A stretch of DNA of 32,000 nucleotides from Halogeometricum borinquense DSM 11551 (GTDB taxonomy: Archaea; Halobacteriota; Halobacteria; Halobacteriales; Haloferacaceae): NCBI RefSeq assembly GCF_000172995.2, contig NC_014729.1, forward strand, positions 1,140,001 through 1,172,000, read 5' to 3'. Below, in pieces: positions 7,770 to 32,000 of the stretch. The notes under the pieces are model-generated. The model saw nothing but the letters and a program-made list of their open reading frames with translations. It made no database searches and was not told the DNA's origin. The stretch's first letter is position 1. Each line of letters opens with the position of its first letter. A program made the translations under genes and the position numbers.

Positions 7770-10574
7770 TCACCGGCGCGCCCACTCAAGCATCCGCGCG
7801 TAGAACGGGTCGGATTCGAGGGCGTTGGCGTCGCCGACGAGGACGAGCGACTTCTTCGCGCGAGTCAGCGCGACGTTGATGCGACGGTGGTCCTCGAAGA
7901 TAGGTCCGTCGAGCGTTCCGCTGGCGACGAACGAGACGATGACGACCTCCTTCGAGGAGCCTTGGAATCGGTCTACGGTGTCCACAGTCACGTCTGTCCG
8001 TTTTCCGATCTCAGCTACTTGCGCTCGGAACGGCGCGATAACGCCGATATCGTCGGGTTCGACGCCCGCCGCGACGAACGTCTCGACGAGTTCGGCCACG
8101 CGCTCGGCTTCTACGGGGTTGGTGTTGCCGACGCGCGACCCATTGGGGTCGATGAACGCCACCGGGTCGCGGAGCGGTTCCGGGAGCGCCGACTCGTCCA
8201 CACCGAGATCCGAGAGCCGTTGGGCGGCCACTTCACCGGTCGCGGGTCGAAGCGCGCCGTCGTAGAACTCCGCCGACGAGAACGCCTGAATCCGCTGACT
8301 CATACGGTACTGGCGGTCCAGCATCACCGACGCCTCCGGCGCGGCATCGATGAGTCGTTCGAAAAGCGACTGCTGGAGGTCGTTCTCCGCGCGGACGACT
8401 GGCGGCAGTTGTTCGTGGTCGCCGACGAGAACGAACCGGTCGGCGCGGTTGATGGCGGCGAGCGTTCCCGGTTCGGTCAACTGCGACGCCTCGTCCACGA
8501 GCGCCACGTCGAACGACTGCTCGCGCATCACGCGTGATCCACACGACGAAGTAGTCGCGGCGACGACGGGTGCATCGGTCAGTTCTGCGACCCGGTCGTT
8601 CGGGTCGCCGGTCGTCTTCAAGTGGAGATCCTGCATGTCCTCGCGGATGCCGTTCTCAGTGCCGACGCGCACCGCGTCCGCAAAGCCCTGATCGCGCAAC
8701 GCTTCGAGTGCGTTGTCCACCGCACGGTTCGTGAACGCAGAGAGGAGGACACGGTTGCCGTCAGCGACGAGTGCGCGGACGATTCGAGCGATGGTGTACG
8801 TTTTTCCCGTTCCCGGCGGTCCGTGAACGAGAGCGAAATCCTCGGCGTCCACTGCGAGTTTCACGGCTTCGTTCTGCGCGTCGTTATTATCGATATACGT
8901 CGCCTCGCTTCGCTCTGTGAACGCCGGGTCCCGGCGGCCGAACAGCACGTCCTTCCGGTCTGAATCGCCCTTCAAAAGCGCGTCGTGGACGGCGGTGAGC
9001 ATCCGCGAGACAGAGATTTCGGACGGGTATACGTCGAGTCGGCGGAGTTCGACGGGTTCGTCTGCGGTGACGACCACTCTGTCTCCAAGTTCGCGGATAC
9101 GGCAGAGTTCTGCATGGCCTCCGACGGGGTCGCCGTTGCTGGCGAGACACACGTCGCCTTCCCGGAGTTTCGATACCGCGCCGTCGGGTTTCTTCGCCGT
9201 GAGTTCCCACCGCTGCCCCTCGATTTCACGTTGGTCGAGCGGTTCGAGACCGATGAGCGCTCTGTCGTCGTCGGCCCGTTCCGCGGCGGACTGCTCCCAG
9301 AGTTTGCGGTACTCTGCGTGCGTCTCGCGCCGCTCCTCCTCGATAGCGCGGTAGATTCGGTCGAAGTACTCGCGTTCGTCTTCGGGAAGGGGCTTACCGA
9401 TCTTTCCTGCTTTCGACTCTTGGTCGAGACGCCCAGAGACCACCATGCAGGTGTCCTGTTCGAAGCAGTACTCGCAGTTGGCGTCCGCTTCGAATCCGGT
9501 CGGGACGGCGGTATCAAACTCCATCGCGGCGATTTCGTTACGCGTGCGGACGACGAACTCCAAGAGACCGTTTCCGATGGAGAACTCCTTTGCGGGCGAG
9601 AGGTCGCCGGACTCCTCGTGTCGTTCGAGAGCGGTGTTTTTCGTGTAGAGAAGCGTCCCCGTGTTGGCCGGGACGCCGCGTTCGTCGAGGACGAGAGCGT
9701 ACGCCGCGGCCTGAATCTTATCTTGGAATCGCGGGTCGCGCTTGAGGTTCTTGCCGGTCTTCAGTTCGACGGGCATCCCGCGGCGGAGCGCGTCCGCCCG
9801 GCCTTTAATCCCGAACGTCGGCGAGATGAGCGTGTACTCCGAGCGCCACTCGTCTTCCTCCGTAAGCGTTCCCTGCGCTAACCAGCCCTCGATGGCGGCC
9901 GCATTCCGCCGCACCTCGTCTTCAACCTCGGTCGCGTCGTAGCCGAGCAAGCCGAGTTGCAGGCCCGCTTCGGCGACGCGCTCCTCGATAGCGTCGTCTA
10001 AGTCGCGCCCGCGGAGGAGGTCACCGAACACTTCGTGGACGATTGTCCCCTTCACGACGGGATAGTTCAGCGGGATTCCGGACAGTTTGTTCAGATAGTA
10101 CATCCGCGGGCACTGCACCCACGAGCGAATGTCTGTCACGTCGACGAGGAAATCCGGTTCGAGGACGACGTACGACTCTTTCGCCGTCGAGTACGTCGGT
10201 TCGCCGCGATACTCCGACTCTTCGGCGTCGGTGACGAGAAGGTCCATGCCGGGTTCTGCGAGGTCTGCGGTGTGGGTCCACTTCCCCCAGAGCGTCACCC
10301 GGACGAGTGCATCGCCGTCGGCGTCAGTGGTGTCGGCCGATCCGTCGCCCACGGCGTCGATTGGTCCGTCACCCGCCGCACCGGGACGAATCGACACTTC
10401 GGCGAGCGAGCGCGTTCCGTACTGCGTCTCCACTTCGCGTTCGTCGCTCACTTCGACGATGCGGCCGCGGAGGTTCACACCGACAGGTCCGTGCCGGGGC
10501 GAAAAACGCTGTCGGTCACGGTTGTCGATCACGGACACGTTGCCGCCGACACCCTCCAGCGTCGTCTGAGTCAA
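7770..10574 (-). CDS. dna2: Dna2-like nuclease-helicase: N-terminal OB-like region, Cas4/RecB-type Fe-S PD-(D/E)XK nuclease, SF1B helicase
   Basis: 934 aa. Nuclease elements are Cys in WVQCPRMYY plus CEYCFEQDTC (a C...CX2CX5C cluster), GRADAL, VELKTGK (ExK) and QAAAYA (QxxxY). Helicase motifs are GPPGTGKT, VDEASQ, VLVGDHEQLPP, QYRM, TVDRFQGSSKEVVIVS and NVALTRAKKSLVLVG. Confidence 0.85.
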   Translation of the reverse strand: MTQTTLEGVGGNVSVIDNRDRQRFSPRHGPVGVNLRGRIVEVSDEREVETQYGTRSLAEVSIRPGAAGDGPIDAVGDGSADTTDADGDALVRVTLWGKWTHTADLAEPGMDLLVTDAEESEYRGEPTYSTAKESYVVLEPDFLVDVTDIRSWVQCPRMYYLNKLSGIPLNYPVVKGTIVHEVFGDLLRGRDLDDAIEERVAEAGLQLGLLGYDATEVEDEVRRNAAAIEGWLAQGTLTEEDEWRSEYTLISPTFGIKGRADALRRGMPVELKTGKNLKRDPRFQDKIQAAAYALVLDERGVPANTGTLLYTKNTALERHEESGDLSPAKEFSIGNGLLEFVVRTRNEIAAMEFDTAVPTGFEADANCEYCFEQDTCMVVSGRLDQESKAGKIGKPLPEDEREYFDRIYRAIEEERRETHAEYRKLWEQSAAERADDDRALIGLEPLDQREIEGQRWELTAKKPDGAVSKLREGDVCLASNGDPVGGHAELCRIRELGDRVVVTADEPVELRRLDVYPSEISVSRMLTAVHDALLKGDSDRKDVLFGRRDPAFTERSEATYIDNNDAQNEAVKLAVDAEDFALVHGPPGTGKTYTIARIVRALVADGNRVLLSAFTNRAVDNALEALRDQGFADAVRVGTENGIREDMQDLHLKTTGDPNDRVAELTDAPVVAATTSSCGSRVMREQSFDVALVDEASQLTEPGTLAAINRADRFVLVGDHEQLPPVVRAENDLQQSLFERLIDAAPEASVMLDRQYRMSQRIQAFSSAEFYDGALRPATGEVAAQRLSDLGVDESALPEPLRDPVAFIDPNGSRVGNTNPVEAERVAELVETFVAAGVEPDDIGVIAPFRAQVAEIGKRTDVTVDTVDRFQGSSKEVVIVSFVASGTLDGPIFEDHRRINVALTRAKKSLVLVGDANALESDPFYARMLEWARR

Positions 10575-17808: not shown

Positions 17809-18207
17809 TCAGCGGTAGGACTTCTGGTAGCGTGCTCGTGCGCCCGGTCCGCCCCACTTCTTGGACTCGGACTGGCGAACGTCGTTGACGAGCAACGAAC
17901 GGTCGAAGTCCATGTAGGCGTCTCGGAGTTCGGCGTCGTTGAGATATTGCACCAGCCCACGCGCGATGGCAGTTCGCACTGCATCTGCCTGACCGGCGAA
18001 GCCGCCGCCGGAGACGCTGACGTCGATATCGACCTGTGAACGGAGGTCCTCGCCAGCGATGCGGAACGGTTCCAGCATCTTCAGGCGGGCCATCTCCGGT
18101 TCGGTCAGTTCGACCGGGCGGGAGTTGATACGGACGCGACCCTCACCCTCGCGCACGGTTGCGCGAGCGATGGCGGTCTTCTTCTTTCCTGACGTGTTCG
18201 TTACCAT
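17809..18207 (-). CDS. rps9: 30S ribosomal protein S9 (uS9)
   Basis: 132 aa with C-terminal [14 protein letters not shown]. 7-nt overlap with the rpl13 stop. Confidence 0.95.
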
Positions 18208-18638
18208 GTGACGTTAGCACCCAGTTTCTCGGAAACCTCTCCGAGTGCGATGAACTTGATGTTCGACAGGCGGTCCAGCGAGGTGTCGTCGAGAACGTCG
18301 CCGTCCTCGTCGAACGGGTTGCCGACGTAGACGCGGACGTTCGAGAGTGCCTCGCGGCCCTTGTCGGTCTTGTACGGGACCATCCCGCGCACGGCGCGCT
18401 TGAAGATACGGTCCGGACGCTTGGGGTAGTACGGTCCCTGGTCCGAACCCACTTCGACGCGCTTGCGGTAGACGCCCATCACGTCGTCTTCGGATCCCGT
18501 GATGACTGCGTCTTCGGCGTTTACGATGGCGACCTTCTCGCCGGCGAGCGCCTTCTGGGCGACTTCGCTGGCGACACGGCCAAGGATACAGTTTCGCGCG
18601 TCAACGACAACGTCTGCGTCGAACTCGGCGAGGCTCAT
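18201..18638 (-). CDS. rpl13: 50S ribosomal protein L13 (uL13)
   Basis: ATG at 18638 (verified). [27 protein letters not shown]...[21 protein letters not shown]. The track's 235-aa form adds an Arg-rich non-homologous N-terminus that overlaps rpl18e. Confidence 0.95.
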
Positions 18639-18985
18639 CGAATCACCCGTACATCGGACCCGTCGGGGTTCTGTTCTGCGATCTGTTCGAGGGTCACCGT
18701 GTCTCCGACCTGTTCTATCTTCTTGCGAGCGGACGACGAGAAGTCGACCGCTGCGACGGTAACGTTCTTTTCCAGCACACCGCTGCCCAGCACCTTGCCG
18801 GGGACGATAACGGTCTCGTCTTCCTTGGCGTACCGTTCGATACGACCGAGGTTGACCTCTGCGTGGGTGCGCCGGGGCTTTTCGAGACGGTCCGCGACGT
18901 CCTGCCACACGTTGGCGCCAGACTCACGAGAAACCGCCTTCAGCTCGGCGATGAGACTGTTGAGTCTCGGGTTAGTCTTACTCAT
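18635..18985 (-). CDS. rpl18e: 50S ribosomal protein L18e (eL18)
   Basis: [27 protein letters not shown]...[12 protein letters not shown] overlap with the rpl13 start. Confidence 0.9.
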
Positions 18986-19012
18986 TGTCTACCTCCTTCT
19001 GAGAAAACGGAG

Positions 19013-19097
19013 TGCAGGGAGCAGGATTTGAACCTGCGGACCCCTATGGGACAGCGCCCTGAACGCTGCGCCGTTGGCCAGACTTGGCTATCCCTGC
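19013..19097 (-). tRNA. tRNA-Leu (anticodon CAG), class II with long variable arm
   Basis: Reverse complement folds by hand: GCAGGGA/TCCCTGC acceptor, CAGCG-TTCAGGG-CGCTG anticodon arm, GCAGG-TTCAAAT-CCTGC T-arm, discriminator A. CCA is not encoded. Confidence 0.9.
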
Positions 19098-19138
19098 TCG
19101 CACTCCGACGTACTGCGTGCCCCTTCAAACCAGTTTCG

Positions 19139-19251
19139 ATTCGACGGCCGATAGGCTCGCCGGCGCTCGGGCGCGAGACGCTCGCGGACGCGGCCGTCAG
19201 GGCGGCTACGGGCGAGGCGCTCGCTTCGCGGGCGGCGAACGGTCGTCGAAT
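19139..19251. other. GC-rich structured spacer: 12-bp long-range stem enclosing two near-identical short hairpins
   Basis: attcgacggccg (19139-19150) pairs with cggtcgtcgaat (19240-19251). Inside are CGCGAG-ACG-CTCGCG (19172-19186) and GCGAG-GCG-CTCGC (19212-19224). There is no credible ORF. Confidence 0.3.
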
Positions 19252-19273
19252 GGTGGAAGGGACAGTCATTATT

Positions 19274-20056
19274 CTATATCGCTACTTTCTCTTCGAGTTC
19301 GGCCGCGCGGTCAGAGATACTCTCGACTGCGCGACGGACCAGTTCCGGGACGGTGAACGACCCGTCCGTCTCCACGTGGAAGACGAACGCGCCGGGCACG
19401 TCGTGTACCTCGACTTCCTTGCCGGGGTATCGCTTCGTGAGGTCGTTGTCGAACTCTGACGTGGGGACGAGTTCGCCGTCTTCGGCGCTCTCGTCGGCGG
19501 CGTGTTCGGCCGCCTGCTCTTCGATGACCCCTCGGAGAATGTTCGGTTCCTGCTCTTCGAACTCGTTGGCGTCACCAACGACCTCCACGCGGTGGAGATG
19601 TCGGTAGCCGACAGCCACACCACCTTGGTGCTTCGCGTGGGACTTCCCGTCACCGAGGACGGCGTCAGCCTCAAGTTCGAGGCGTTGGCCCTGCTTCAGT
19701 TCGATGATGGGCACGTTGTCCTCTGCGGGTTTGACGAGTTCGTCAGACGTCTCGATATCTCCGGAGTAGGCTGTTGCCGGACCTTCCACGTCGAGTGCAA
19801 GTGTCACGGTGTCGCCCTGCTCGAAGTCGTCGAGCGGCGTCGTGAGCGGAACGAGGCCGAGGCGGAGACCGATCATCTCGTCGAACATCACCGACGAGTT
19901 CTCGACGAACCGTACGGTGTCGATACTGAACGTCGGCACGTCAGCGATCATCGCTCGCCGGATGCCGTTGGCGACTGCCGGGGTCATCCCGCGAACGAGG
20001 AAGCGAGCCTTTCGGTCGTCGCGTTCGATGAACTCGACCTCGAAATCTTCTGCCAT
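19274..20056 (-). CDS. rpoD: DNA-directed RNA polymerase subunit D (Rpo3)
   Basis: [57 protein letters not shown]..., the Rpo3/RpoD N-terminal dimerisation-domain signature. Confidence 0.92.
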
Positions 20057-20065
20057 GGGTCTATG

Positions 20066-20461
20066 TTAGAGTCGGCTGTTTTTCGGCGCGCGAGTACCGT
20101 CGTGCGGAATCGGCGTGACGTCCTCGATACGGCCGATTTCGAGACCGGCACGGGCGAGGGCACGAATCGTTGCCTGTGCGCCGGGGCCGGGGCTCTTGTT
20201 GAGGTTGCCGCCGGGGCCGCGCACGCGAACGTGCAGGCCCTCGATGCCGGCCGCTTTGACTTCCTCTGCGACCTTCTCGGCCATCTGCATGGCCGCGTAT
20301 GGCGACGCCTCGTCGCGGTTCTGCTTCACCACGGCACCACCGGACGACTTGGCGATGGTTTCAGCGCCAGTCTGATCGGTGATGGTGATGAGCGTGTTGT
20401 TGAACGATGCGTGTACGTGGGCGATGCCCCACTTTGCGCCGGAGTTCTCGGATTCGCTCAT
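20066..20461 (-). CDS. rps11: 30S ribosomal protein S11 (uS11)
   Basis: [19 protein letters not shown]...[31 protein letters not shown]. Confidence 0.95.
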
Positions 20462-20464
20462 TGG

Positions 20465-20992
20465 TTACTCCTGACCCTCTGCTCGCTCGGGGTGTAGTTC
20501 GTCCGAGAGCGGACTGCCTTCGTCGAATTCGACGAGGCCCTCCTCGGAGACTTCGACCATCTTCGACGGACGCGTGACGCGGGCACCGTCAACGACCACG
20601 TGGCCGTGAACGATGAACTGCCGCGACTGGTCCGGCGTGTGACCGAGGCCTTTGCGGTAGGCGACGGTCTGCAGACGACGTTCGAGGATGTCGGTCACGT
20701 CGAGACCGAGGACCTCGCTGATGTTGTCGTCTTCAGAGAGAATGCCGTAGCGGCGGAGACGGTCGAGGAACTCGACGCCGAGTTCCTCGGCCTGCTCCAT
20801 GTCACCCTGCGCTTCACCGATGAGGCGTCGGGCCTCACGGCGGTAGTTACGCAGTTCGGACTGGGCACGCCAGAGTTCCTCTTTGTTCTTCAGACCGTAG
20901 CGCCCGAGGAGGTCGGCCTCCTGTGCGATGCGCTCGCCCTGGAACGGATGATTCGGCGTCTCGTAGAATTTGGTGTTCTTACCGGTCGCCAT
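20465..20992 (-). CDS. rps4: 30S ribosomal protein S4 (uS4)
   Basis: KFYETPNHPFQGERIAQE...LERRLQTVAYRKGL...QFIVHGHVVVDG (S4 domain). Confidence 0.95.
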   Translation of the reverse strand: MATGKNTKFYETPNHPFQGERIAQEADLLGRYGLKNKEELWRAQSELRNYRREARRLIGEAQGDMEQAEELGVEFLDRLRRYGILSEDDNISEVLGLDVTDILERRLQTVAYRKGLGHTPDQSRQFIVHGHVVVDGARVTRPSKMVEVSEEGLVEFDEGSPLSDELHPERAEGQE

Positions 20993-21510
20993 TATTCTTC
21001 ACCGCCCTCTTCGGCGGCCTGTTCTTCTTTGATGGCTTCGACGTTCACGCCGATGGTCCCCTCCGTACGTCCGGTGGACTTCGTGCGCTGACCGCGCACC
21101 TTCTGTCCGCGCTTGTGGCGGACGCCCTTGTAGGAGTTGATCATCTTCATGCGGTTAATGTCGTGGCGGCGCTTCTGTTCGAGGTCCGAGCCGGTCTTGT
21201 GGGTGGTCTCGCCGGTGTAAAAGTCATCGCGGCGGTTGATCATCCACTCGGGGGCGTGGTCGTTGAAGTTCTCGACAACATCGACAACGGCGTCGATGTC
21301 ATCTTGGTCGAGAAGCCCGAACGTCTCCGTTCGGTCCACACCCGCGGCGTCGGCGACGATGCGCGCCGTGCGCTTGCCGATACCTTTCATGTCGGAGAGA
21401 CTCCGCTCTACCGTCTTCGTCCCGTCAAGGTCGGTCTGACCGATCCGGACGAAGTACTGGAGGTCTTCCTCCTCCTCGGGAGCGTCGTCTTGTGGTTCTT
21501 CTGCACTCAT
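20992..21510 (-). CDS. rps13: 30S ribosomal protein S13 (uS13)
   Basis: VRIGQTDLDGTKTVERSLSDMKGIGKRTARIV...YKGVRHKRGQKVRGQRTKSTGR. TAATG overlap with rps4. Confidence 0.95.
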   Translation of the reverse strand: MSAEEPQDDAPEEEEDLQYFVRIGQTDLDGTKTVERSLSDMKGIGKRTARIVADAAGVDRTETFGLLDQDDIDAVVDVVENFNDHAPEWMINRRDDFYTGETTHKTGSDLEQKRRHDINRMKMINSYKGVRHKRGQKVRGQRTKSTGRTEGTIGVNVEAIKEEQAAEEGGEE

Positions 21511-21529
21511 GACTGGAAAGTCGGGTGAG

Positions 21530-21614
21530 CGTTGCGGCGGGGATTCGAACCCCGGAGGCGTGGTGCCACTGAGTTAGCAACCCAGCGCCTTGGGCCAGGC
21601 TTGGCTACCGCAAC
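21530..21614 (-). tRNA. tRNA-Ser (anticodon GCU), class II
   Basis: Reverse complement: GTTGCGG/CCGCAAC acceptor, CTGGG-TTGCTAA-CTCAG anticodon arm, long variable arm, CGGGG-TTCGAAT-CCCCG T-arm, discriminator G. It lies 19 nt upstream of rps13 on the same strand. Confidence 0.9.
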
Positions 21615-26766: not shown

Positions 26767-26807
26767 CCGACAAACCTTAGAACACCCACCGAGAATCAAC
26801 ACCCGCT

Positions 26808-26890
26808 GGTGGGATGGCAGAGTGGACTATTGCGCCTGCCTTGAAAGCAGGTGGCCTTTGGCCTCCTGGGTTCAAATCCCAGTCCCACCG
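26808..26890 (+). tRNA. tRNA-Ser (anticodon UGA), class II
   Basis: GGTGGGA/TCCCACC acceptor, CCTGC-CTTGAAA-GCAGG anticodon arm, long variable arm, CTGGG-TTCAAAT-CCCAG T-arm, discriminator G. Confidence 0.9.
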
Positions 26891-26892
26891 CC

Positions 26893-26896
26893 TTTT
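26893..26896 (+). terminator. Oligo-T run immediately after tRNA-Ser(UGA)
   Basis: TTTT begins 3 nt after the discriminator base. Oligo-T is the archaeal termination signal. Confidence 0.35.
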
Positions 26897-26995
26897 CAAG
26901 CGAATTTCGTATGACGTAGTTTCAACTGCGCCGCACGGTACCGAATCTGCCGGTAGATGCGTAACGGCTATGGGTTGGCCTTCCAACACAGGGAT

Positions 26996-27319
26996 ATGGA
27001 CTGGCCACACGACCCTGATAGCGAAGAAGGGAGTGAGGGAATGCGCAAGTACGGGCAGGCAATCATTGCGAAGAAGGTAGACGAAGACGAGGACTTCCCC
27101 CTCTCGACGGCGGAGTTCGTCGAAGAACACGGTGACGACCCGATTCGGATCGACTACGAGACGGTTGTCTCGCTTCGGGATATCTTCGAGAACGTCGAAG
27201 AAGAGTCGTTCGAGGCCTTCGTGCCGTTCCACAAAGCCGTCGGTCGCGCGATGCGCGAGAACGGCTACTGGTTCTACGAGGGCGCAGACCAGTTCGCCGA
27301 GACGAAAAACAGCGCCTGA
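26996..27319 (+). CDS. Conserved-looking small acidic haloarchaeal protein (function unknown)
   Basis: MDWPHDPDSEEGSEGMRKYGQAIIAKKVDEDEDFPL...NGYWFYEGADQF. The ATG at 26996 has a weak TATA-like GCTATGG about 26 nt upstream. The ATG at 26957 is an alternative start. Confidence 0.6.
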   Translation: MDWPHDPDSEEGSEGMRKYGQAIIAKKVDEDEDFPLSTAEFVEEHGDDPIRIDYETVVSLRDIFENVEEESFEAFVPFHKAVGRAMRENGYWFYEGADQFAETKNSA

Positions 27320-27358
27320 ACCGGCGTCGTTCGTCACCGCTCGTTCAGAGAGACTGAT

Positions 27359-28201: not shown

Positions 28202-28208
28202 TTTATAA
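28202..28208 (+). promoter_or_regulatory. TATA box (TTTATAA) for the substrate-binding protein gene, leaderless geometry
   Basis: aaaTTTATAAtgg is centred about 28 nt upstream of the ATG at 28233, within an AT-rich 220-nt divergent spacer. Confidence 0.45.
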
Positions 28209-28232: not shown

Positions 28233-29552
28233 ATGGCACGTGATATCGCACGCCGTGACTTTCTGAAGCGCGCGGGTGCAGCCAGTGCTGTGGGAGCAGC
28301 GGGACTATCAGGGTGTATCGGAAGCCCCGGAGGAGGGGGAGGCGGTCCGGAAGGACTCGTTGTCATCGGCTACCCGGAAAGCGGAATTCAACTCTTCCGC
28401 GACTACTACAGCCAGTCCGACGGGTCCGAGAGCATTCTCGTCCCCGACGGTCTGCGCGACGGTGCGATGCCCGGTCAGGTCGGCAACGACATGGCGAACG
28501 TCACCGGGACAGCACCGGCGGCGGGCGGTCCGAATCAGGAAGCGTTCAACCAACTGTTCCAAGACGAGTACAACGCAGCGCCGGGTGTGTTCACCTCACA
28601 GTCGTACGACTCCGTGGCGCTGCTCATCCTCGCAAACGCCGCGGCGGGTGAGAACAGCGGTCCGGCGCTGAAAGAGCAGATGCGTCGCATCGCCAACCCC
28701 GGAGGCGACGAGTACGGTCCGGAGAAATTCGTCGAAGCGGTGGAAGCGGCCGCCAACGGCGACGACATCAACTATCAGGGTGCGTCGTCCGCGACGAACT
28801 TCAACGAGAAGGGCGACCCGGCGTCAGCCGCGTACGCCATCTGGGAGTTCGAGGGAACCGACTCGGATTCGACGGCCACCCAAGAGGTGCAAAACTTCGA
28901 AGGCGAAAACCCAGAGGGGAGCGGACCGTCGGCCGACAGCGGACCGGGAGGTTCCGACCGCGAAATCTCGGTGGGGATTCTCCTCCCTGAAACCGGCGAC
29001 CTCGCGTCCGTCGGTGCGCCGATGATTCAAGCGGCACAGATCCCGGTCAAACAGGTCAACAACGCCAATCCGGCGGGACTGACCGTCAACGCGCAGATTG
29101 AGGACACGCAGACATCGCCCAGCGCCGGCACTTCGGCCGCACAGGCACTCGTCAGTGCGGGCGTTCCGGGCGTCTGTGGCTCTGCGTCGTCTGGTGTCAA
29201 CGTTCCCGTCTCACAGCAGGCGTTCATCCCGAACGAAGTCGTCGGCTGTTCGCCGTCCTCGACGGCGCTGTCGGTGTCGAACCTCGAAGACAACGACTTC
29301 ATCTTCCGGACGGCACCGTCGGACTTCCTGCAGGGCCGTGTCATGGCGCAGGTCATGTCCGAGCGACTTGAGGCGTCCACCGTCTCGACGCTGTTCGTCA
29401 ACAACGACTACGGCCAGCAACTGTCGAACCGCTTTGCCAACGTGTTCGAAGAGCAGTTCGACGGTGAGGTGTACCACCAGACCGCGTTCAACATCGGAGA
29501 GTCTTCGTACTCCTCAGTCATCGAGACGGCGCTGTCCGCTCCGGACAACTGA
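28233..29552 (+). CDS. Tat-lipoprotein LivJ-type (Peripla_BP_6-like, type I) ABC substrate-binding protein with swapped half order (apparent circular permutation)
   Basis: RRDFLK twin-arginine motif plus LSGC lipobox. Residues 41-208 resemble the C-terminal half of LivJ and residues 244-439 resemble the N-terminal half (see findings). Single uninterrupted ORF. Confidence 0.85.
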   Translation: MARDIARRDFLKRAGAASAVGAAGLSGCIGSPGGGGGGPEGLVVIGYPESGIQLFRDYYSQSDGSESILVPDGLRDGAMPGQVGNDMANVTGTAPAAGGPNQEAFNQLFQDEYNAAPGVFTSQSYDSVALLILANAAAGENSGPALKEQMRRIANPGGDEYGPEKFVEAVEAAANGDDINYQGASSATNFNEKGDPASAAYAIWEFEGTDSDSTATQEVQNFEGENPEGSGPSADSGPGGSDREISVGILLPETGDLASVGAPMIQAAQIPVKQVNNANPAGLTVNAQIEDTQTSPSAGTSAAQALVSAGVPGVCGSASSGVNVPVSQQAFIPNEVVGCSPSSTALSVSNLEDNDFIFRTAPSDFLQGRVMAQVMSERLEASTVSTLFVNNDYGQQLSNRFANVFEEQFDGEVYHQTAFNIGESSYSSVIETALSAPDN

Positions 29553-29695: not shown

Positions 29696-30490
29696 ATGCA
29701 TCGCCGCGCCCTCCTCGCTAGTCTCGGGTCGTCGCTGCTCGTCGGTATCGCAGGCTGTCAGTCGGACCCCGGTGAAACGGGCAGTTCATCGCCGACAGAC
29801 AACGCCACGCGAACGAACTCACCTGCGACGGGGACGACGCAACGCCCGCCTTCGACCGGGACGCCGACAGGAGACGCGTACACTGTTCCTGATGCGGACC
29901 GAATACTCGGCTCCGCGCAGGCGAAACTCCGGAACGACAGTGGCGAAGCGACGACGTTGACGCTCGCTGTCGAGTACGAGGGCGACCGCTTCTTCGAGGA
30001 GTCGTTCGACTTGAAAGCGGGTGATGAGGTATCCACTGACTCGTTGGTCGCCTCGCACGCCACCTACGACGTGGTCGTGGAGACGAGCGACGGTGGCCGG
30101 GCGACGGACGAGTGGTTGATCCCGGAGCGTTGGCACTGGCCGCAGTTGGCGATTCTCGTCGCAGACGATGGGTCGCTTCAGATTGGCTGTGGATTGCCCC
30201 GAAGCCGAGAGATACCGGTCGAGAACACGGATGAGACGCCGCGTGATGTGACGCTAACGCTCTCTGACGGAAACGAGACGGTCGTAGAGACAACGCAGAC
30301 GATACAACCCGGTAACGGCCACCTCAGCTTTGACGGTCCTATCGGTGGCGAGTACGAGATGCAGATCGAGACAGACGAAGGGTCAGACACTGCGACGTAT
30401 TTCTCCTGTTACTGCCGGAATACGGAAGCACGCGTTCAGATCGACGACGGCAAGCCGACGCTGGAGACGCTCCGACTCACCTGCGAGTGA
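29696..30490 (+). CDS. Secreted lipoprotein with Thr/Pro-rich linker and two internally repeated modules; function unknown
   Basis: MHRRALLASLGSSLLVGIAGC (signal plus lipobox), a T/P/S-rich tether, then two similar ~60-aa beta-rich units. Five Cys lie in the C-terminal half. Confidence 0.6.
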   Translation: MHRRALLASLGSSLLVGIAGCQSDPGETGSSSPTDNATRTNSPATGTTQRPPSTGTPTGDAYTVPDADRILGSAQAKLRNDSGEATTLTLAVEYEGDRFFEESFDLKAGDEVSTDSLVASHATYDVVVETSDGGRATDEWLIPERWHWPQLAILVADDGSLQIGCGLPRSREIPVENTDETPRDVTLTLSDGNETVVETTQTIQPGNGHLSFDGPIGGEYEMQIETDEGSDTATYFSCYCRNTEARVQIDDGKPTLETLRLTCE

Positions 30491-30565: not shown

Positions 30566-31321
30566 TTAGCCGCCGAGGAAGTCTTGGCGAACCTGTTCGT
30601 CGTTCAGGAGCGCCCGACCGGAATCGGTGTAGCGGTTCTCGCCGTTAGCGAGGACGTACCCGCGGTCACACCGCCGAAGAGCCTCCTTCGCGTTCTGTTC
30701 GACCATGAGGATGGCCGTTCCTGCCTCGTTGATCTCGTCGATCTTGTCGAACATCTCGTCTACGAGGTCCGGTGCGAGACCCGCCGAGGGTTCGTCCAAC
30801 AGCAGCAGCGAGGGTTCGAGCATCAGGGCACGACCCATCGCTAGCATCTGCTGTTGGCCGCCGGACATCGTCCCCGCTTTCTGCCCTTTCCGTTCTTCGA
30901 GGATGGGGAAGCGTTCAAACACCATATCGAGGGCGTCCTGCGGCACCTCATCAAGGATGTACGCACCCATCTCCAAGTTCTCTTGAACCGTGAGCGCCGC
31001 GAAGACGTTGTCGTTCTGCGGGACGTATCCGACGCCCTTGTGGATGATCTCTTCGGGGCGCAGGCCAGTGATGTCCTCGGTCTCGAACGTCACTGTTCCG
31101 CCCATGTGACTGGTGAGGCCGAAGACGGACTTCATCAGCGTGGACTTGCCTGCACCGTTCGGGCCGACGATGGTGACGTACTCGCCGTCGTGAACGTCCA
31201 TGTCCACGTCGGTGAGGATCTGTAAGTCTCCGTACCCCGCATCAAGGTTGCGGACGCGAAGCAGTTCTTCGCCCGCAACATCGGGTGTCGAGTCCGTCGC
31301 CGCGGTGGTGTCAGAACTCAT
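30566..31321 (-). CDS. livF: Branched-chain amino acid-type ABC transporter ATP-binding protein (LivF-like)
   Basis: GPNGAGKSTLMKSVFGL (Walker A), LSGGQQQMLAMGRAL (signature), LLLLDEPSAGLAP (Walker B). ATGA overlap with the upstream livG. Confidence 0.9.
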   Translation of the reverse strand: MSSDTTAATDSTPDVAGEELLRVRNLDAGYGDLQILTDVDMDVHDGEYVTIVGPNGAGKSTLMKSVFGLTSHMGGTVTFETEDITGLRPEEIIHKGVGYVPQNDNVFAALTVQENLEMGAYILDEVPQDALDMVFERFPILEERKGQKAGTMSGGQQQMLAMGRALMLEPSLLLLDEPSAGLAPDLVDEMFDKIDEINEAGTAILMVEQNAKEALRRCDRGYVLANGENRYTDSGRALLNDEQVRQDFLGG

Positions 31322-32000
31322 ACGTTCCCTCCGAGGTACGCTTCGATGACCTCTTCGTTCGATTTGATGTCCGCTGGCGTGCCCTCAGTGAGGACGCGCC
31401 CTTGGTGGAGGACGATGACGTGTTCGCAGTTCTCCATGATGAGATCCATATCGTGTTCGACCAACAGGAAGGTGTAGCCCTGCTCTCGGAGTTCGTGGAT
31501 GTGCGTGAGCAGTCGTTTCTCAAGCGACGGGTTGACGCCGGCGAACGGTTCGTCCAACAGGAGCATGTCCGGGTCCGTCAGCAGTGCCCGAGCCATCTCC
31601 AGCAATTTCCGCTGACCGCCCGAGAGGTTGCCCGCGTACTCCTCTGCGATGTGGTCTATCTCGAAGAACTCCAGCACCTCCCAGACGCGCTCTAATAGCT
31701 CCTCTTCTTGCTCGATAACGTCGTTGCGGACGCCTGGGGTAACTGAACGCCAGAGTTTCTCGCCGCGCTGGTTCTTCGGCGCAAGCATCATGTTCTCCAA
31801 GACGGTCATGTCTTCGAGTTCGCGGGCGATTTGGAACGTCCGGACGAGTCCCTTGTTGGCGATTGCGTGCGGTTCCATCCCGGTGATGTCCTCGCCGTTG
31901 AACGTGACTGTCCCTTTGTCGGGTTTGAGCATCCCCGTGATGAGGTTGAACGTCGTCGATTTCCCGGCCCCGTTCGGGCCGATGAGGCCAGTCAGCGTTC
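31318..32000 (-). CDS. livG: Branched-chain amino acid-type ABC transporter ATP-binding protein (LivG-like), 5'-truncated by the window edge
   Basis: Reverse translation of 31933-32000 gives LTGLIGPNGAGKSTTFNLITG (Walker A) upstream of the track's Met. LSGGQRKLLEMARAL and MLLLDEPFAGVNP are also present. The gene continues beyond 32000. Confidence 0.9.
   Translation of the reverse strand, partial: TLTGLIGPNGAGKSTTFNLITGMLKPDKGTVTFNGEDITGMEPHAIANKGLVRTFQIARELEDMTVLENMMLAPKNQRGEKLWRSVTPGVRNDVIEQEEELLERVWEVLEFFEIDHIAEEYAGNLSGGQRKLLEMARALLTDPDMLLLDEPFAGVNPSLEKRLLTHIHELREQGYTFLLVEHDMDLIMENCEHVIVLHQGRVLTEGTPADIKSNEEVIEAYLGGNV

What the first reader, a model, noticed from the sequence alone, without database searches (positions are those of the whole stretch)
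28233..29552. LivJ-type substrate-binding lipoprotein with its two halves in swapped order (apparent circular permutation)
Seen directly: residues 244-439 (nt 28962-29549; EISVGILLPETGDLASVGAPMIQAAQIPVKQVN...FRTAPSD...YGQQLSNRF...ESSYSSVIETALSAPDN-stop) align colinearly by eye with the N-terminal ~190 residues of canonical type I binding proteins such as E. coli LivJ (DIKVAVVGAMSGPVAQYG...LRTTGLD...YGEGLARAV...DFSTLVARLKKENID). Residues 41-208 (nt 28353-28856; GLVVIGYPESGIQLFRDYY..ILVPDGL..MANVTGTAP..FTSQSYDSVALLILANAAAG..NFNEKGDP..YAIWEFEG) align with the LivJ C-terminal half (FVYYGGYHPEMGQILRQA..FMGPEGV..GLLVTKP..WTTYAALQSLQAGL..TWDEKGDL..FGVFDW). The order is therefore Tat signal/lipobox, C-half, a 35-aa Gly/Ser/Asp/Pro/Thr linker (residues 209-243) that looks like a typical post-lipobox tether, N-half, stop. 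The stop falls exactly where canonical proteins continue into the strand that here follows the lipobox (..ALSAPDN* versus ..GGPEGLVVIGY..). The ORF is uninterrupted (439 codons), keeps RRDFLK plus LSGC, and has a good TATA box 28 nt upstream, so it looks expressed rather than decayed. Inference: this is the product expected from a tandem duplication or fusion followed by in-frame loss of the first N-half and the last C-half. A permuted binding protein would have its termini and membrane tether moved relative to the ligand-binding hinge. I do not know whether this topology is already represented in databases.
Basis: partly seen in the sequence, partly recalled or inferred. Interest (0 to 1): 0.7.

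Follow-up and report, generated by a model that had tools for sequence, protein, structure and literature searches.

The report
Circularly permuted haloarchaeal amino-acid binding lipoprotein
This gene encodes a working nutrient-binding protein whose two sequence halves sit in swapped order compared with all solved relatives; the swapped form is old and conserved across salt-loving archaea, and relatives preserve the fused and half-trimmed stages that show how such a swap arises.

Summary
ORF 28233-29552 (+, 439 aa; Halogeometricum borinquense) is a Tat/lipobox protein. Residues 244-434 match Peripla_BP_6 positions 1-187 and residues ~73-153 match positions 226-311. Rejoining the halves in silico gives one continuous match to Pfam profiles and to solved LivJ-type structures.

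It is not an artefact or remnant. The gene is identical in independent assemblies and colinear in at least 80 species genomes across Halobacteria. dN/dS is 0.17. In 69 of 75 loci it sits convergent to livHMGF. All LivJ amino-acid-contacting positions are kept and are split between the halves. AlphaFold2 gives pLDDT 87 and pTM 0.84.

New findings: close canonical relatives exist (about 50% identity), as do tandem N-C-N-C fusions. At least five permutation events have bootstrap support, with four break points, each just before a beta-strand on the side away from the cleft. One metagenomic locus (L085) looks like a fusion-and-truncation intermediate that still carries the cut-off fragment.

The only natural precedent I found is T. 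pallidum MglB-2, a different family with a different break point. No solved structure or paper describes this topology. I rate it a new variant of a known kind, interest about 0.65.

The parts
28202..28208 (+). TATA-like promoter element (TTTATAA), centred 28 nt upstream of the ATG; implies a leaderless or near-leaderless transcript
   Evidence: Read directly. TTTATAA or TTTTATAA is conserved at the same distance in Halogeometricum limi, Haloferax and Halobellus, with CTTATAA/CTTATCA in Halorussus/Halorubrum. Promoter function is inferred, not shown.
28233..29552 (+). Complete gene for the circularly permuted LivJ/HAAT-type substrate-binding lipoprotein (439 codons plus stop)
   Evidence: ORF. 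100% identical to an H. borinquense protein and to DNA from independent assemblies. Pfam PF13458 95 bits against a cut-off of 31.7.
28233..28316 (+). Tat signal peptide with RR (R7, R8) and lipobox LSGC (Cys28)
   Evidence: TIGR01409 17.7 bits against a cut-off of 16.7; Pfam TAT_signal is weak. M1, R7, R8 and C28 are invariant in 32 orthologues.
28317..28349 (+). Post-lipobox Gly-rich tether (residues 29-39); length is variable among orthologues (about 10-60 aa)
   Evidence: Alignment A1; pLDDT below 50 for residues 1-35.
28350..28904 (+). Old C-terminal part of the fold (residues 40-224; about LivJ 195-346; Peripla_BP_6 positions about 188-343). Carries ligand positions Y47, D72 and F120.
28905..28961 (+). 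Conserved connector of about 19 aa (residues 225-243) that joins the old C-terminus to the old N-terminus; probably a former lipoprotein tether
   Evidence: Fixed length with invariant P227, G229, G231, A234, D235, G239 and R243. pLDDT about 80-89. Its last residues resemble the tether ends of canonical relatives.
28962..29549 (+). Old N-terminal part of the fold (residues 244-439; about LivJ 1-194; Peripla_BP_6 positions 1-187). Carries ligand positions S320, S342-T344 and Y393.
30566..31321 (-). livF-type ABC ATPase, the last gene of the convergent livH-livM-livG-livF operon; presumed partner transporter
   Evidence: ORF; ABC_tran. livF lies downstream on the opposite strand in 69 of 75 related loci.
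31318..32000 (-). livG-type ABC ATPase (runs off the window end; livM and livH follow in the genome)
   Evidence: (ABC_tran plus BCA_ABC_TP_C, then two BPD_transp_2 genes).

Best explanation
The gene encodes a functional, Tat-exported, lipid-anchored binding protein of the LivJ/HAAT family (type I, 'cluster B'). Its chain order is circularly permuted.

Layout. The mature chain starts at the strand equivalent to LivJ 196-202 in lobe 2 and runs through the old C-terminus. A conserved connector of about 19 aa leads into the old N-terminal strand beta1 of lobe 1. The chain ends after the helix equivalent to LivJ about 181-192.

Function. All secondary-structure elements are present once, so the protein folds into the usual two-lobed Venus-flytrap. 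Its amino-acid-binding site is built from residues of both sequence halves. It delivers an amino acid (exact specificity unknown) to the LivHMGF importer encoded convergently next to it. Fold and function are inferred from sequence and a confident model, not from experiment.

Consequences of the permutation (inferred from LivJ domain boundaries recalled from memory). The membrane tether moves from the cleft-distal pole of lobe 1 to the cleft-distal pole of lobe 2. The connector adds a fourth chain crossing between the lobes.

Origin (inferred, supported by extant relatives). Two adjacent or tandem binding-protein genes fused. The second signal peptide was lost, leaving its tether as the linker. 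An in-frame 5' deletion then removed the first N-part and a 3' truncation removed the last C-part. This happened early in Halobacteria for the window's clade. Comparable events occurred repeatedly in the family.
For: Permutation:
- Swapped Pfam and PDB coordinates.
- The de-permuted sequence aligns continuously to profiles and solved structures.

Fold:
- AlphaFold2 gives mean pLDDT 87.3 and pTM 0.84; only the signal peptide and tether score low.
- Foldseek hits Leu-bound LivJ-type proteins (4n0q, 3ipc, 4gnr) at 2.2 A rmsd, but over only about 190-200 of about 345 residues. That is the pattern expected for a permutant under a sequence-order aligner.

Binding site:
- LivJ S79, A100-T102 and Y150 map to S320, S342-T344 and Y393.
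- LivJ Y202, E226 and F276 map to Y47, D72 and F120.
- These positions are conserved across the family.

Real and selected:
- DNA is identical in independent assemblies, and dN/dS against Haloferax is 0.17.
- More than 100 colinear clusters.
- At least 80 species across Haloferacaceae plus Halorubrum, Halorussus, Halostella, Haloarchaeobius and Haladaptatus.

Transporter link:
- livF-G-M-H lies convergent in 69 of 75 loci, with no other binding-protein gene within 10 kb.

Origin:
- Canonical relatives at about 50% identity, tandem N-C-N-C proteins, and other break points.
- Permutants pair with canonical proteins at 89-100% bootstrap.
- Locus L085 carries signal-C'-linker-N-C[1-23], then a 22-nt break with a stop, then the orphaned rest of C. 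Its two C copies are 76% identical in DNA.
- Linker ends match the tether ends of canonical neighbours.
Against: - There is no experimental structure, ligand or expression data for this protein.
It reproduced the published residue numbers, but it was 344 aa long, not the 346 aa listed for the LivJ-type chains 2lbp and 1usg.
- Specificity within Peripla_BP_6 (amino acids, amides, urea, aromatic acids) is not fixed by these residues alone.
- The tree is neighbour-joining on corrected p-distances, not maximum likelihood.
- Two alternative break points (P0126, P0127) rest on single metagenomic contigs.
- The P0483/P0411 pair shares a linker motif (SADxxPG) with the window clade although both halves are closer to canonical proteins. 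The number of independent origins is therefore uncertain, and gene conversion or reversion cannot be excluded.
- No tandem N-C-N-C form was seen among haloarchaeal relatives in the top 150 cluster representatives.
Confidence: 0.85

Rival explanations
1. Assembly or annotation artefact: the swapped order results from a chimeric join in this genome assembly.
For: None found. This was the default worry for any unusual domain order.
Against: The 1320-nt gene is identical in a Logan assembly of run ERR481281 and in GCA_004150395.1. The exact protein is on 6 contigs. Colinear orthologues at 61-89% identity occur in at least 80 species genomes, including complete chromosomes.
Confidence: 0.01
2. Rearrangement remnant: an open but functionless leftover of a scrambled binding-protein gene.
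For: Related locus L085 does contain a cut-off, probably decaying fragment next to a permuted ORF, so remnants do exist in this family.
Against: dN/dS is 0.17 over the whole gene. Mean column identity is 77% across genera, with invariant ligand-site, signal, lipobox and connector residues. The TATA element and the livHMGF partnership are conserved. The monomer model is confident.
Confidence: 0.03
3. The two halves do not fold back on each other within one chain. Instead they pair between chains (a domain-swapped dimer or oligomer), or the protein acts as a sensor or chemoreceptor-like binding protein and does not feed the ABC importer.
For: Circular permutants and tandem repeats can promote domain swapping (general knowledge). 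The gene is convergent to livHMGF, not co-transcribed with it. Binding proteins can double as chemoreceptors, as proposed for TpMglB-2.
Against: AlphaFold2 predicts a compact monomer with pTM 0.84 and an ordered connector. The convergent pairing with livHMGF holds in 69 of 75 loci, and there is no alternative binding-protein gene at the locus.
Confidence: 0.07
4. A single ancient permutation in Halobacteria, followed by gene conversion from canonical paralogues, or by reversion to canonical order, explains the apparent recurrence. On this reading the family is not unusually prone to permutation.
For: The linker motif (S/P)SAD-x-x-PG is shared by the window clade, P0121, P0122, P0125, P0130 and P0483/P0411. 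It is absent from the canonical tethers examined.
Against: P0127 pairs with canonical P0297/P0128 (bootstrap 93-100) and carries a linker like P0297's tether plus a leftover C fragment. The Halorubrum group has the tether end 'EFEARV' of canonical P0378/P0394. Bacterial P0179 pairs with canonical P0226 at 100% bootstrap. Break points differ: profile positions about 35, 140, 187 and 209.
Confidence: 0.15

Closest known systems
Canonical LivJ/LivK-type (HAAT family, Peripla_BP_6, type I / cluster B) amino-acid binding proteins, e.g. E. coli LivJ (1Z15), LivK (1USG), Brucella 4N0Q, S. pneumoniae 4GNR, Agrobacterium Atu2422 (3IPC), T. maritima 3TD9
   Same: - Same family by sequence: PF13458 95 bits native and 108 bits de-permuted.
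- Same fold elements, and the same ligand-contacting positions (S79, A100-T102, Y150, Y202, E226, F276 equivalents).
- Same partner genes, livHMGF.
- Local structural match at 2.2 A rmsd.
   Different: - The chain order is circularly permuted at about LivJ residue 194/195.
- The old termini are joined by a conserved connector of about 19 aa.
- The anchor enters lobe 2 and not lobe 1.
- No solved chain is colinear with it over both halves.
Treponema pallidum Tp0684 / TpMglB-2, founding member of the proposed 'Type Ic / Cluster Bc' circularly permuted binding proteins (PMC4990184)
   Same: - A natural circular permutant of a type I binding protein that is a membrane-tethered lipoprotein.
- It is still functional and has an additional (fourth) inter-lobe crossing.
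- It is encoded near its ABC transporter and found as a conserved subfamily, not a one-off.
   Different: - Different family: a glucose/galactose binder related to MglB, not the LivJ type.
- Different break point: only the first three N-lobe strands (about 70-100 residues) are moved to the C-terminus, and its C-lobe order is unaffected.
- Its moved part has almost no sequence similarity to canonical MglB, so the authors could not decide between permutation and acquisition from another gene. Here both parts are clearly homologous, and canonical relatives reach about 50-75% identity.
The 'permutation by duplication' model of circular permutation: tandem duplication or fusion followed by truncation of both ends (general protein-evolution knowledge, from memory)
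   Same: The stages the model predicts are all seen among relatives. They are canonical N-C proteins, fused N-C-N-C proteins whose units are each other's closest relatives, a partly truncated C-N-C locus with an orphan fragment, and finished C-N proteins.
   Different: - The two C copies at L085 are only 76% identical in DNA, and some permutants have halves of unequal similarity to their nearest canonical relative. This points to fusion of diverged neighbouring paralogues and not to a fresh tandem duplication.
- The signal peptide and lipobox are retained through an in-frame internal deletion.
Tandem substrate-binding domains fused in one polypeptide (e.g. the two SBDs of Lactococcus GlnPQ; from memory)
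   Same: Relatives P0135, P0140, P0155 and P0163 carry two complete LivJ-type domains in one lipoprotein. P0163's cluster has 17 members, including Candidatus Poriferisocius.
   Different: Those are type II domains fused to the permease. Here the domains are type I in a free lipoprotein, and the window protein itself contains only one domain's worth of sequence.

Membership tests
LivJ/HAAT-type binding protein (Pfam Peripla_BP_6, type I / cluster B) | Significant match to the family profile above the curated cut-off | tested here: met
   PF13458 95 bits (cut-off 31.7) for the native sequence and 108.3 bits de-permuted; PF01094 64.7 bits (cut-off 25.4).
LivJ/HAAT-type binding protein (Pfam Peripla_BP_6, type I / cluster B) | Complete set of fold elements for both lobes | tested here: met
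   The de-permuted sequence covers profile 1-311/343 (PF13458) and 4-352/353 (PF01094) in one stretch. The AlphaFold2 model has pTM 0.84 with alternating beta-alpha elements throughout.
LivJ/HAAT-type binding protein (Pfam Peripla_BP_6, type I / cluster B) | Chain order colinear with the family (N-lobe start, three crossovers, C-terminal tail) | tested here: not met
   Profile positions 1-187 lie at residues 244-434 and positions 226-311 at residues 73-153. PDB and Foldseek alignments cover only about half of each target. This is the one way the protein departs from the family: it is a homologue with a different topology.
LivJ/HAAT-type binding protein (Pfam Peripla_BP_6, type I / cluster B) | Conserved residues that hold the alpha-amino and alpha-carboxylate groups of the ligand | tested here: met
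   S320, S342-S343-T344, Y393, Y47, D72 and F120 align with LivJ S79, A100-A101-T102, Y150, Y202, E226 and F276. The LivJ sequence and residue roles come from memory.
LivJ/HAAT-type binding protein (Pfam Peripla_BP_6, type I / cluster B) | Encoded with LivH/LivM permeases and LivG/LivF ATPases | tested here: met
   Convergent livF-G-M-H lies immediately downstream in 69 of 75 loci with enough sequence.
LivJ/HAAT-type binding protein (Pfam Peripla_BP_6, type I / cluster B) | Binds an amino acid and delivers it to the transporter | not testable with these tools
   Needs ITC or DSF on purified protein, plus uptake assays.
Circular permutant (standard definition) | Two homologous segments in swapped order; rejoining them restores an end-to-end colinear alignment | tested here: met
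Circular permutant (standard definition) | 3-D structures superpose over the full length when a non-sequential (cp-aware) alignment is allowed | not testable with these tools
Foldseek, which aligns in sequence order, covers about 197 of 345 residues at 2.2 A, which is consistent but not a full test.
TpMglB-2-like 'Type Ic / Cluster Bc' permuted binding proteins | Homology to MglB-type sugar binders, with the first three N-lobe strands relocated to the C-terminus | tested here: not met
   The best families and structures are all LivJ type or ANF receptor. The break point is in lobe 2 at profile position about 187, not within the first about 100 residues. This is an analogue, not a member.
Haloarchaeal Tat-dependent lipoprotein | Twin-arginine motif, hydrophobic stretch, and a lipobox with an invariant Cys | tested here: met
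   RRDFLK...LSGC. TIGR01409 17.7 bits against a cut-off of 16.7. R7, R8 and C28 are invariant. Actual export and lipidation are not testable here.
Pseudogene / rearrangement remnant | Relaxed selection, disruptions in relatives, patchy presence | tested here: not met
   dN/dS is 0.17. Intact colinear orthologues occur in at least 80 species.

The most novel reading that the evidence does not exclude
LivJ-type lipoproteins are a natural hot spot for circular permutation. The same alpha-to-beta loop break point (about LivJ 194/195) has been hit independently in haloarchaea and bacteria, and three other break points also exist. Fused and half-truncated intermediates still survive. The ancient haloarchaeal form is kept because moving the lipid tether to lobe 2 and adding a fourth inter-lobe strap changes how a membrane-tethered binding protein opens, closes or docks on LivHM. 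In that case the permutation is adaptive and not neutral.
Probability: 0.3. Interest if true: 0.8.

Novelty: new variant of a known kind. Interest (0 to 1): 0.65.

Why it matters
Natural circular permutants of periplasmic-binding-protein folds are very rare in the literature. For type I proteins I found only TpMglB-2, whose evolutionary origin its authors could not settle.

- **Evolution.** This family offers a conserved, clearly homologous permutant with close canonical relatives. It also offers tandem fusions, several break points and an apparent intermediate locus. That makes it an unusually complete natural series for testing the duplication-and-truncation route to new protein topologies.
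- **Mechanism.** It gives a natural experiment on how tether position and an extra inter-lobe strap affect Venus-flytrap dynamics and docking to an ABC importer. Haloferax volcanii has the orthologue and is genetically tractable.
- **Engineering.** The naturally tolerated break points lie just before strands at about LivJ 36, 135, 195 and 220. They are ready-made candidates for split or permuted designs and for fluorescent-protein insertion in LivJ-based biosensors.
- **Annotation.** Hundreds of database entries are labelled as ordinary binding proteins without any note of the different topology.

Tried and rejected
1. The first AlphaFold2 run used 32 orthologues at 75% identity or more and gave pLDDT 55.7 and pTM 0.50. 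I discarded it. Adding divergent permuted sequences fixed the problem.
2. Foldseek cannot align circular permutants, so it shows only half-length matches. I could not run CE-CP or TM-align -cp because coordinates are not exposed.
3. Four literature searches with different wording found only engineered cpGFP sensors and TpMglB-2. The library holds open-access papers only, so absence of a hit is not proof of novelty.
4. Expression evidence. I guessed H. volcanii locus tags HVO_2797-2802 from memory. Only HVO_2801 appears, as part of a strongly down-regulated branched-chain amino-acid ABC system during HFPV-1 infection (PMC9436352). No supplement is held. I could not verify that this tag belongs to this locus, so I do not use it as evidence.
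5. P0126 (break point at profile position about 140) is a singleton with no flanking remnants and no adjacent liv operon. I keep it as single-contig evidence only.
6. I first read P0483/P0411 as a clean independent origin. The shared SADxxPG linker motif made me withdraw that, and I have left it unresolved.
7. I considered whether the Ig_halo gene downstream is part of the system. It is present in only 7 of 80 loci, so I rejected that idea.
8. The sigma-70 promoter scanner was not used, because it does not cover archaeal promoters.
Full report
**What is there.** The window holds an uninterrupted 439-codon ORF at 28233-29552 (+). The product is 100% identical to a Halogeometricum borinquense protein annotated as a branched-chain/neutral amino acid ABC transporter substrate-binding protein. 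The N-terminus has a twin-arginine motif (RRDFLK) and the lipobox LSGC. NCBIfam's Tat-signal model passes its cut-off (17.7 against 16.7 bits). A TTTATAA element lies at 28202-28208, centred 28 nt upstream of the ATG, and recurs at the same distance in other genera. That fits a leaderless haloarchaeal transcript, which is an inference.

**Checking the observation.**
- Pfam places residues 244-434 on Peripla_BP_6 positions 1-187 and residues 73-153 on positions 226-311. ANF_receptor gives the same reversed order, and each half is significant when scanned alone.
- phmmer against PDB sequences repeats the pattern. For 4gnr, query 242-430 maps to chain 5-189 and query 101-152 to chain 263-312.
- As a direct test I rejoined the protein in silico (residues 241-439 followed by 38-226). 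The result is one continuous Peripla_BP_6 match (4-315 to 1-311; 108 bits against 95 bits in two pieces), one continuous ANF_receptor match (26-370 to 4-352/353), and single full-length alignments to 4gnr, 3td9, 3ipc and LivK that run across the artificial junction ...ALSAPDN|GPEGLVVIGY....
- The swapped order is therefore real, and it is a circular permutation in the strict sense.

Residues 209-224 belong to the last beta-hairpin of the fold. The true connector is about 19 aa (225-243), has a fixed length, and carries seven invariant positions among 32 orthologues. The real post-lipobox tether varies from about 10 to 60 aa.

**Not an artefact and not a remnant.**
- The gene's DNA is identical in a Logan assembly of a sequencing run and in a separate NCBI assembly.
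- More than 100 protein clusters at 70-90% identity are colinear with it over about 100% of its length.
- A scan of species-representative genomes found colinear copies (residues 1-439 or 39-436, 61-89% identity) in at least 80 species. These include Haloferax, Halogeometricum, Halobellus, Halopelagius, Haloquadratum, Haloplanus, Haloprofundus, Salinigranum, Halorubrum, Halorussus, Halostella, Haloarchaeobius, Halalkalirubrum and Haladaptatus.
- dN/dS against the Haloferax orthologue is 0.17, with dS 0.75.

**Fold and binding site.** The first AlphaFold2 run, on a shallow alignment, was poor (pLDDT 55.7). With divergent permuted sequences added, the model reached mean pLDDT 87.3 and pTM 0.84. 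Only residues 1-35 score low, and the connector scores about 80-89. Foldseek's best PDB hits are LivJ-type amino-acid binders in closed, ligand-bound states (4n0q, 3ipc and 4gnr at 2.2 A rmsd). Open forms fit much worse (1z15 at 6.7 A, 1usg at 7.6 A). Every hit aligns only about 190-200 of about 345 target residues, as expected when a sequence-order aligner meets a permutant. None of the 50 listed hits aligns full-length.

I aligned the de-permuted family to E. coli LivJ. The ligand-contacting positions map as follows, and they are conserved across the family:

| LivJ position | Window protein | Part of the window protein |
|---|---|---|
| S79 | S320 | C-terminal part (old N-half) |
| A100-A101-T102 | S342-S343-T344 | C-terminal part (old N-half) |
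| Y150 | Y393 | C-terminal part (old N-half) |
| Y202 | Y47 | N-terminal part (old C-half) |
| E226 | D72 | N-terminal part (old C-half) |
| F276 | F120 | N-terminal part (old C-half) |

The site needs both halves, which argues that they fold together into one Venus-flytrap that binds an alpha-amino acid. The exact specificity is unknown.

**Genomic context.** In both Halogeometricum and Haloferax the order is udk(-), permuted binding protein(+), Ig_halo protein(+), then livF, livG, livM and livH on the minus strand. No other binding-protein gene lies within 10 kb. Across the 80 related loci, livF-G-M-H sits immediately downstream on the opposite strand in 69 of the 75 loci that have at least 4 kb of downstream sequence. 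The Ig_halo gene occurs in only 7 of 80. The permuted protein is therefore the presumptive receptor of this HAAT-family importer.

**Where the new ends are.** The break lies between the helix equivalent to LivJ about 181-192 and the strand equivalent to LivJ 196-202, in lobe 2. In these Rossmann-like lobes the ligand-binding residues follow the strands, as the model shows for Y47, D72, S320, S342-T344 and Y393. A chain that starts at the beginning of a strand therefore enters at the pole away from the cleft. Using LivJ domain boundaries from memory (lobe 1 is 1-120 and 250-328; lobe 2 is 121-249 and 329-346), I infer two consequences:
- The tether moves from the far pole of lobe 1 to the far pole of lobe 2.
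- The connector adds a fourth crossing between the lobes, as was seen experimentally in TpMglB-2.

**The wider family.** An exhaustive HMMER search over 1.84 billion cluster representatives gave 7232 hits. I classified the top 150 by searching them with the two halves of the query, with these results:
- 119 are canonical N-C, some at 49-53% identity to the query.
- 9 are C-N with the window's break point.
- 4 are tandem N-C-N-C proteins of 813-1034 aa.
- Several full-length lipoproteins have other break points. P0122 and P0129 start at profile position about 35, with the first beta-alpha unit moved to the end. P0126 starts at about 140. In P0127 the N-part runs on to about 209.

Pfam coordinates confirm each of these independently. 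All have a Tat signal, a lipobox and a Gly/Asp tether that joins directly to the new start. All four break points fall in an alpha-to-beta loop immediately before a strand of the model.

**Independent origins.** I de-permuted every sequence, aligned them and built bootstrapped neighbour-joining trees.
- P0127 pairs with canonical P0128 (100%) or P0297 (93%).
- Bacterial P0179, which has the same break point as the window, pairs with canonical P0226 (100%).
- P0126 pairs with canonical P0124 (94%), and P0141 with canonical P0182 (89%).
- The window clade stands on its own (92%).
- The two units of each tandem protein are each other's nearest relatives (96-100%).
- A second, Halorubrum-rich C-N group (P0340 to P0387) has N-halves 72-79% identical to canonical P0378 but only 45-55% identical to the window. 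Its linker ends in the same 'EFEARV' as P0378/P0394's tether.

I therefore count at least five permutation events.

One case is unresolved. P0483 (Haloglomus litoreum, an isolate genome) and P0411 are 70-77% identical to canonical neighbours in both halves, yet they carry the linker motif SADxxPG typical of the window clade. Convergence, gene conversion or reversion cannot be told apart with the present data.

**An apparent intermediate.** P0127 is a singleton: its closest relatives, at up to 89% identity, are canonical. On its 56.7-kb contig the canonical relative P0297 maps in four pieces:

| P0297 residues | L085 coordinates | Identity | Element |
|---|---|---|---|
| 1-30 | 8001-8090 | 73% | signal peptide |
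| 296-450 | 8184-8648 | 78% | first, partial C-half |
| 75-291 | 8709-9359 | 89% | N-half plus the first 23 residues of C |
| 292-452 | 9382-9867 | 84% | rest of a second C-half, in another reading frame |

About 22 nt containing a stop codon separate the third and fourth pieces, and the usual convergent livF-G-M-H follows. The two C copies are 76% identical in DNA and 83% in protein, so collapse of near-identical repeats during assembly does not explain the layout. The internal linker (...GGGGEMNREIKY) resembles P0297's tether (...GSGGDMDREIRY). This is the pattern expected if two diverged neighbouring genes fused, the second signal peptide was lost, the first N-part was deleted in frame, and the last C-part was then cut off. 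It rests on one metagenomic contig and needs read-level confirmation.

A small footprint of the same process may remain in the window protein. The residues Pro-Asp/Glu occur at both ends (...ALSAPDN-stop and GGPEGLVVIGY...), where continuous relatives read ...NDNPDGLFLVGY... or ...SNDPDTLVVIGY....

**Comparison with what is known.** The protein is a homologue of LivJ-type binding proteins. It meets every membership feature I could test except colinear chain order, so I file it as a topological variant of that family.

The only natural circular permutant of a type I binding protein I found in the literature is T. pallidum TpMglB-2, proposed as 'Type Ic / Cluster Bc' (PMC4990184).
- It belongs to the sugar-binding MglB lineage.
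- Only its first three N-lobe strands are moved.
- Its origin could not be resolved because the moved part has lost sequence similarity.

The present family differs in lineage and break point, and in having close canonical relatives, several break points and intermediates.

Two limits apply to the novelty claim. The paper library is open access only. The databases hold hundreds of these sequences under generic names.

**Verdict.** This is a real, ancient and selected circular permutant of a LivJ-type amino-acid binding lipoprotein that serves a LivHMGF importer. The family shows recurrent permutation by fusion and truncation. I rate it a new variant of a known kind, with interest about 0.65.

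Noticed in passing
window 29696-30490 (+): A 264-aa ORF directly downstream of the binding-protein gene starts MHRRALLASLGSSLLVGIAGC (signal plus lipobox-like Cys) and hits Pfam Ig_halo (PF25942). It lies between the binding-protein gene and livF in H. borinquense and Haloferax, where it is 405 aa. tblastn detects it in only 7 of 80 related loci, so it is not a conserved part of the system. Its function is unknown.
   Followed up: partly
L085 9360-9870 (JGI metagenome 3300042668, contig Ga0466774_0000141): A 135-aa ORF was called next to permuted P0127. It is the orphaned remainder of a second C-half, separated from the main ORF by about 22 nt (CGATAGAAGCCAGCGAAAGAAG) that carries a stop and shifts the frame. 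It is still free of internal stops over 162 codons, so the break is either recent or a sequencing error.
   Followed up: yes
L028 and L037 (Haloquadratum walsbyi J07HQW2, same scaffold, about 11.5 kb apart); L051 and L052 (Halorussus halobius, two scaffolds): Some genomes carry two copies of the permuted gene. The second Haloquadratum copy (L037) has no liv genes nearby. Halorubrum genomes seem to hold both a window-clade copy and a member of a second, separately derived permuted group (P0367, P0385).
   Followed up: partly
proteins P0148 (1943 aa) and P0186 (1199 aa): These are very long relatives with three to five N-half matches spaced about 380 aa apart, which means arrays of three to five tandem LivJ-type domains in one polypeptide. 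The source organisms are unknown.
   Followed up: no
proteins P0163/P0283-P0296: The tandem two-domain (N-C-N-C, about 813 aa) form is a well-populated cluster of 17 members on contigs up to 3.57 Mb. It includes the bacterium Candidatus Poriferisocius sp., so double LivJ-type lipoproteins are a stable gene form in some bacteria.
   Followed up: partly
window 26808-26892 (+), 21529-21614 (-), 19012-19097 (-): Three tRNA genes: Ser-TGA, Ser-GCT and Leu-CAG. The long mechanical ORFs that overlap 26777-27337 read through tRNA-Ser and are not genes.
   Followed up: no
window about 18000-21500, by comparison with L001/L002: The window lies next to a conserved ribosomal-protein/RNA-polymerase cluster (S13, S4, S11, RpoD, L18e, L13), followed by thioredoxin, moaA-like radical SAM, an Mrp/ApbC-type ATPase, UDG and uridine kinase. 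The same order holds in Haloferax, so this is a stable chromosomal core region and not an island.
   Followed up: no
linkers of P0483, P0411, window clade, P0121, P0122, P0125, P0130: These linkers share the motif (P/S)SAD-x-x-PG...GR(T/E), which was not seen in the canonical tethers examined. It is unexplained: it could mark common ancestry of the fused junction or a structural requirement of the connector.
   Followed up: partly
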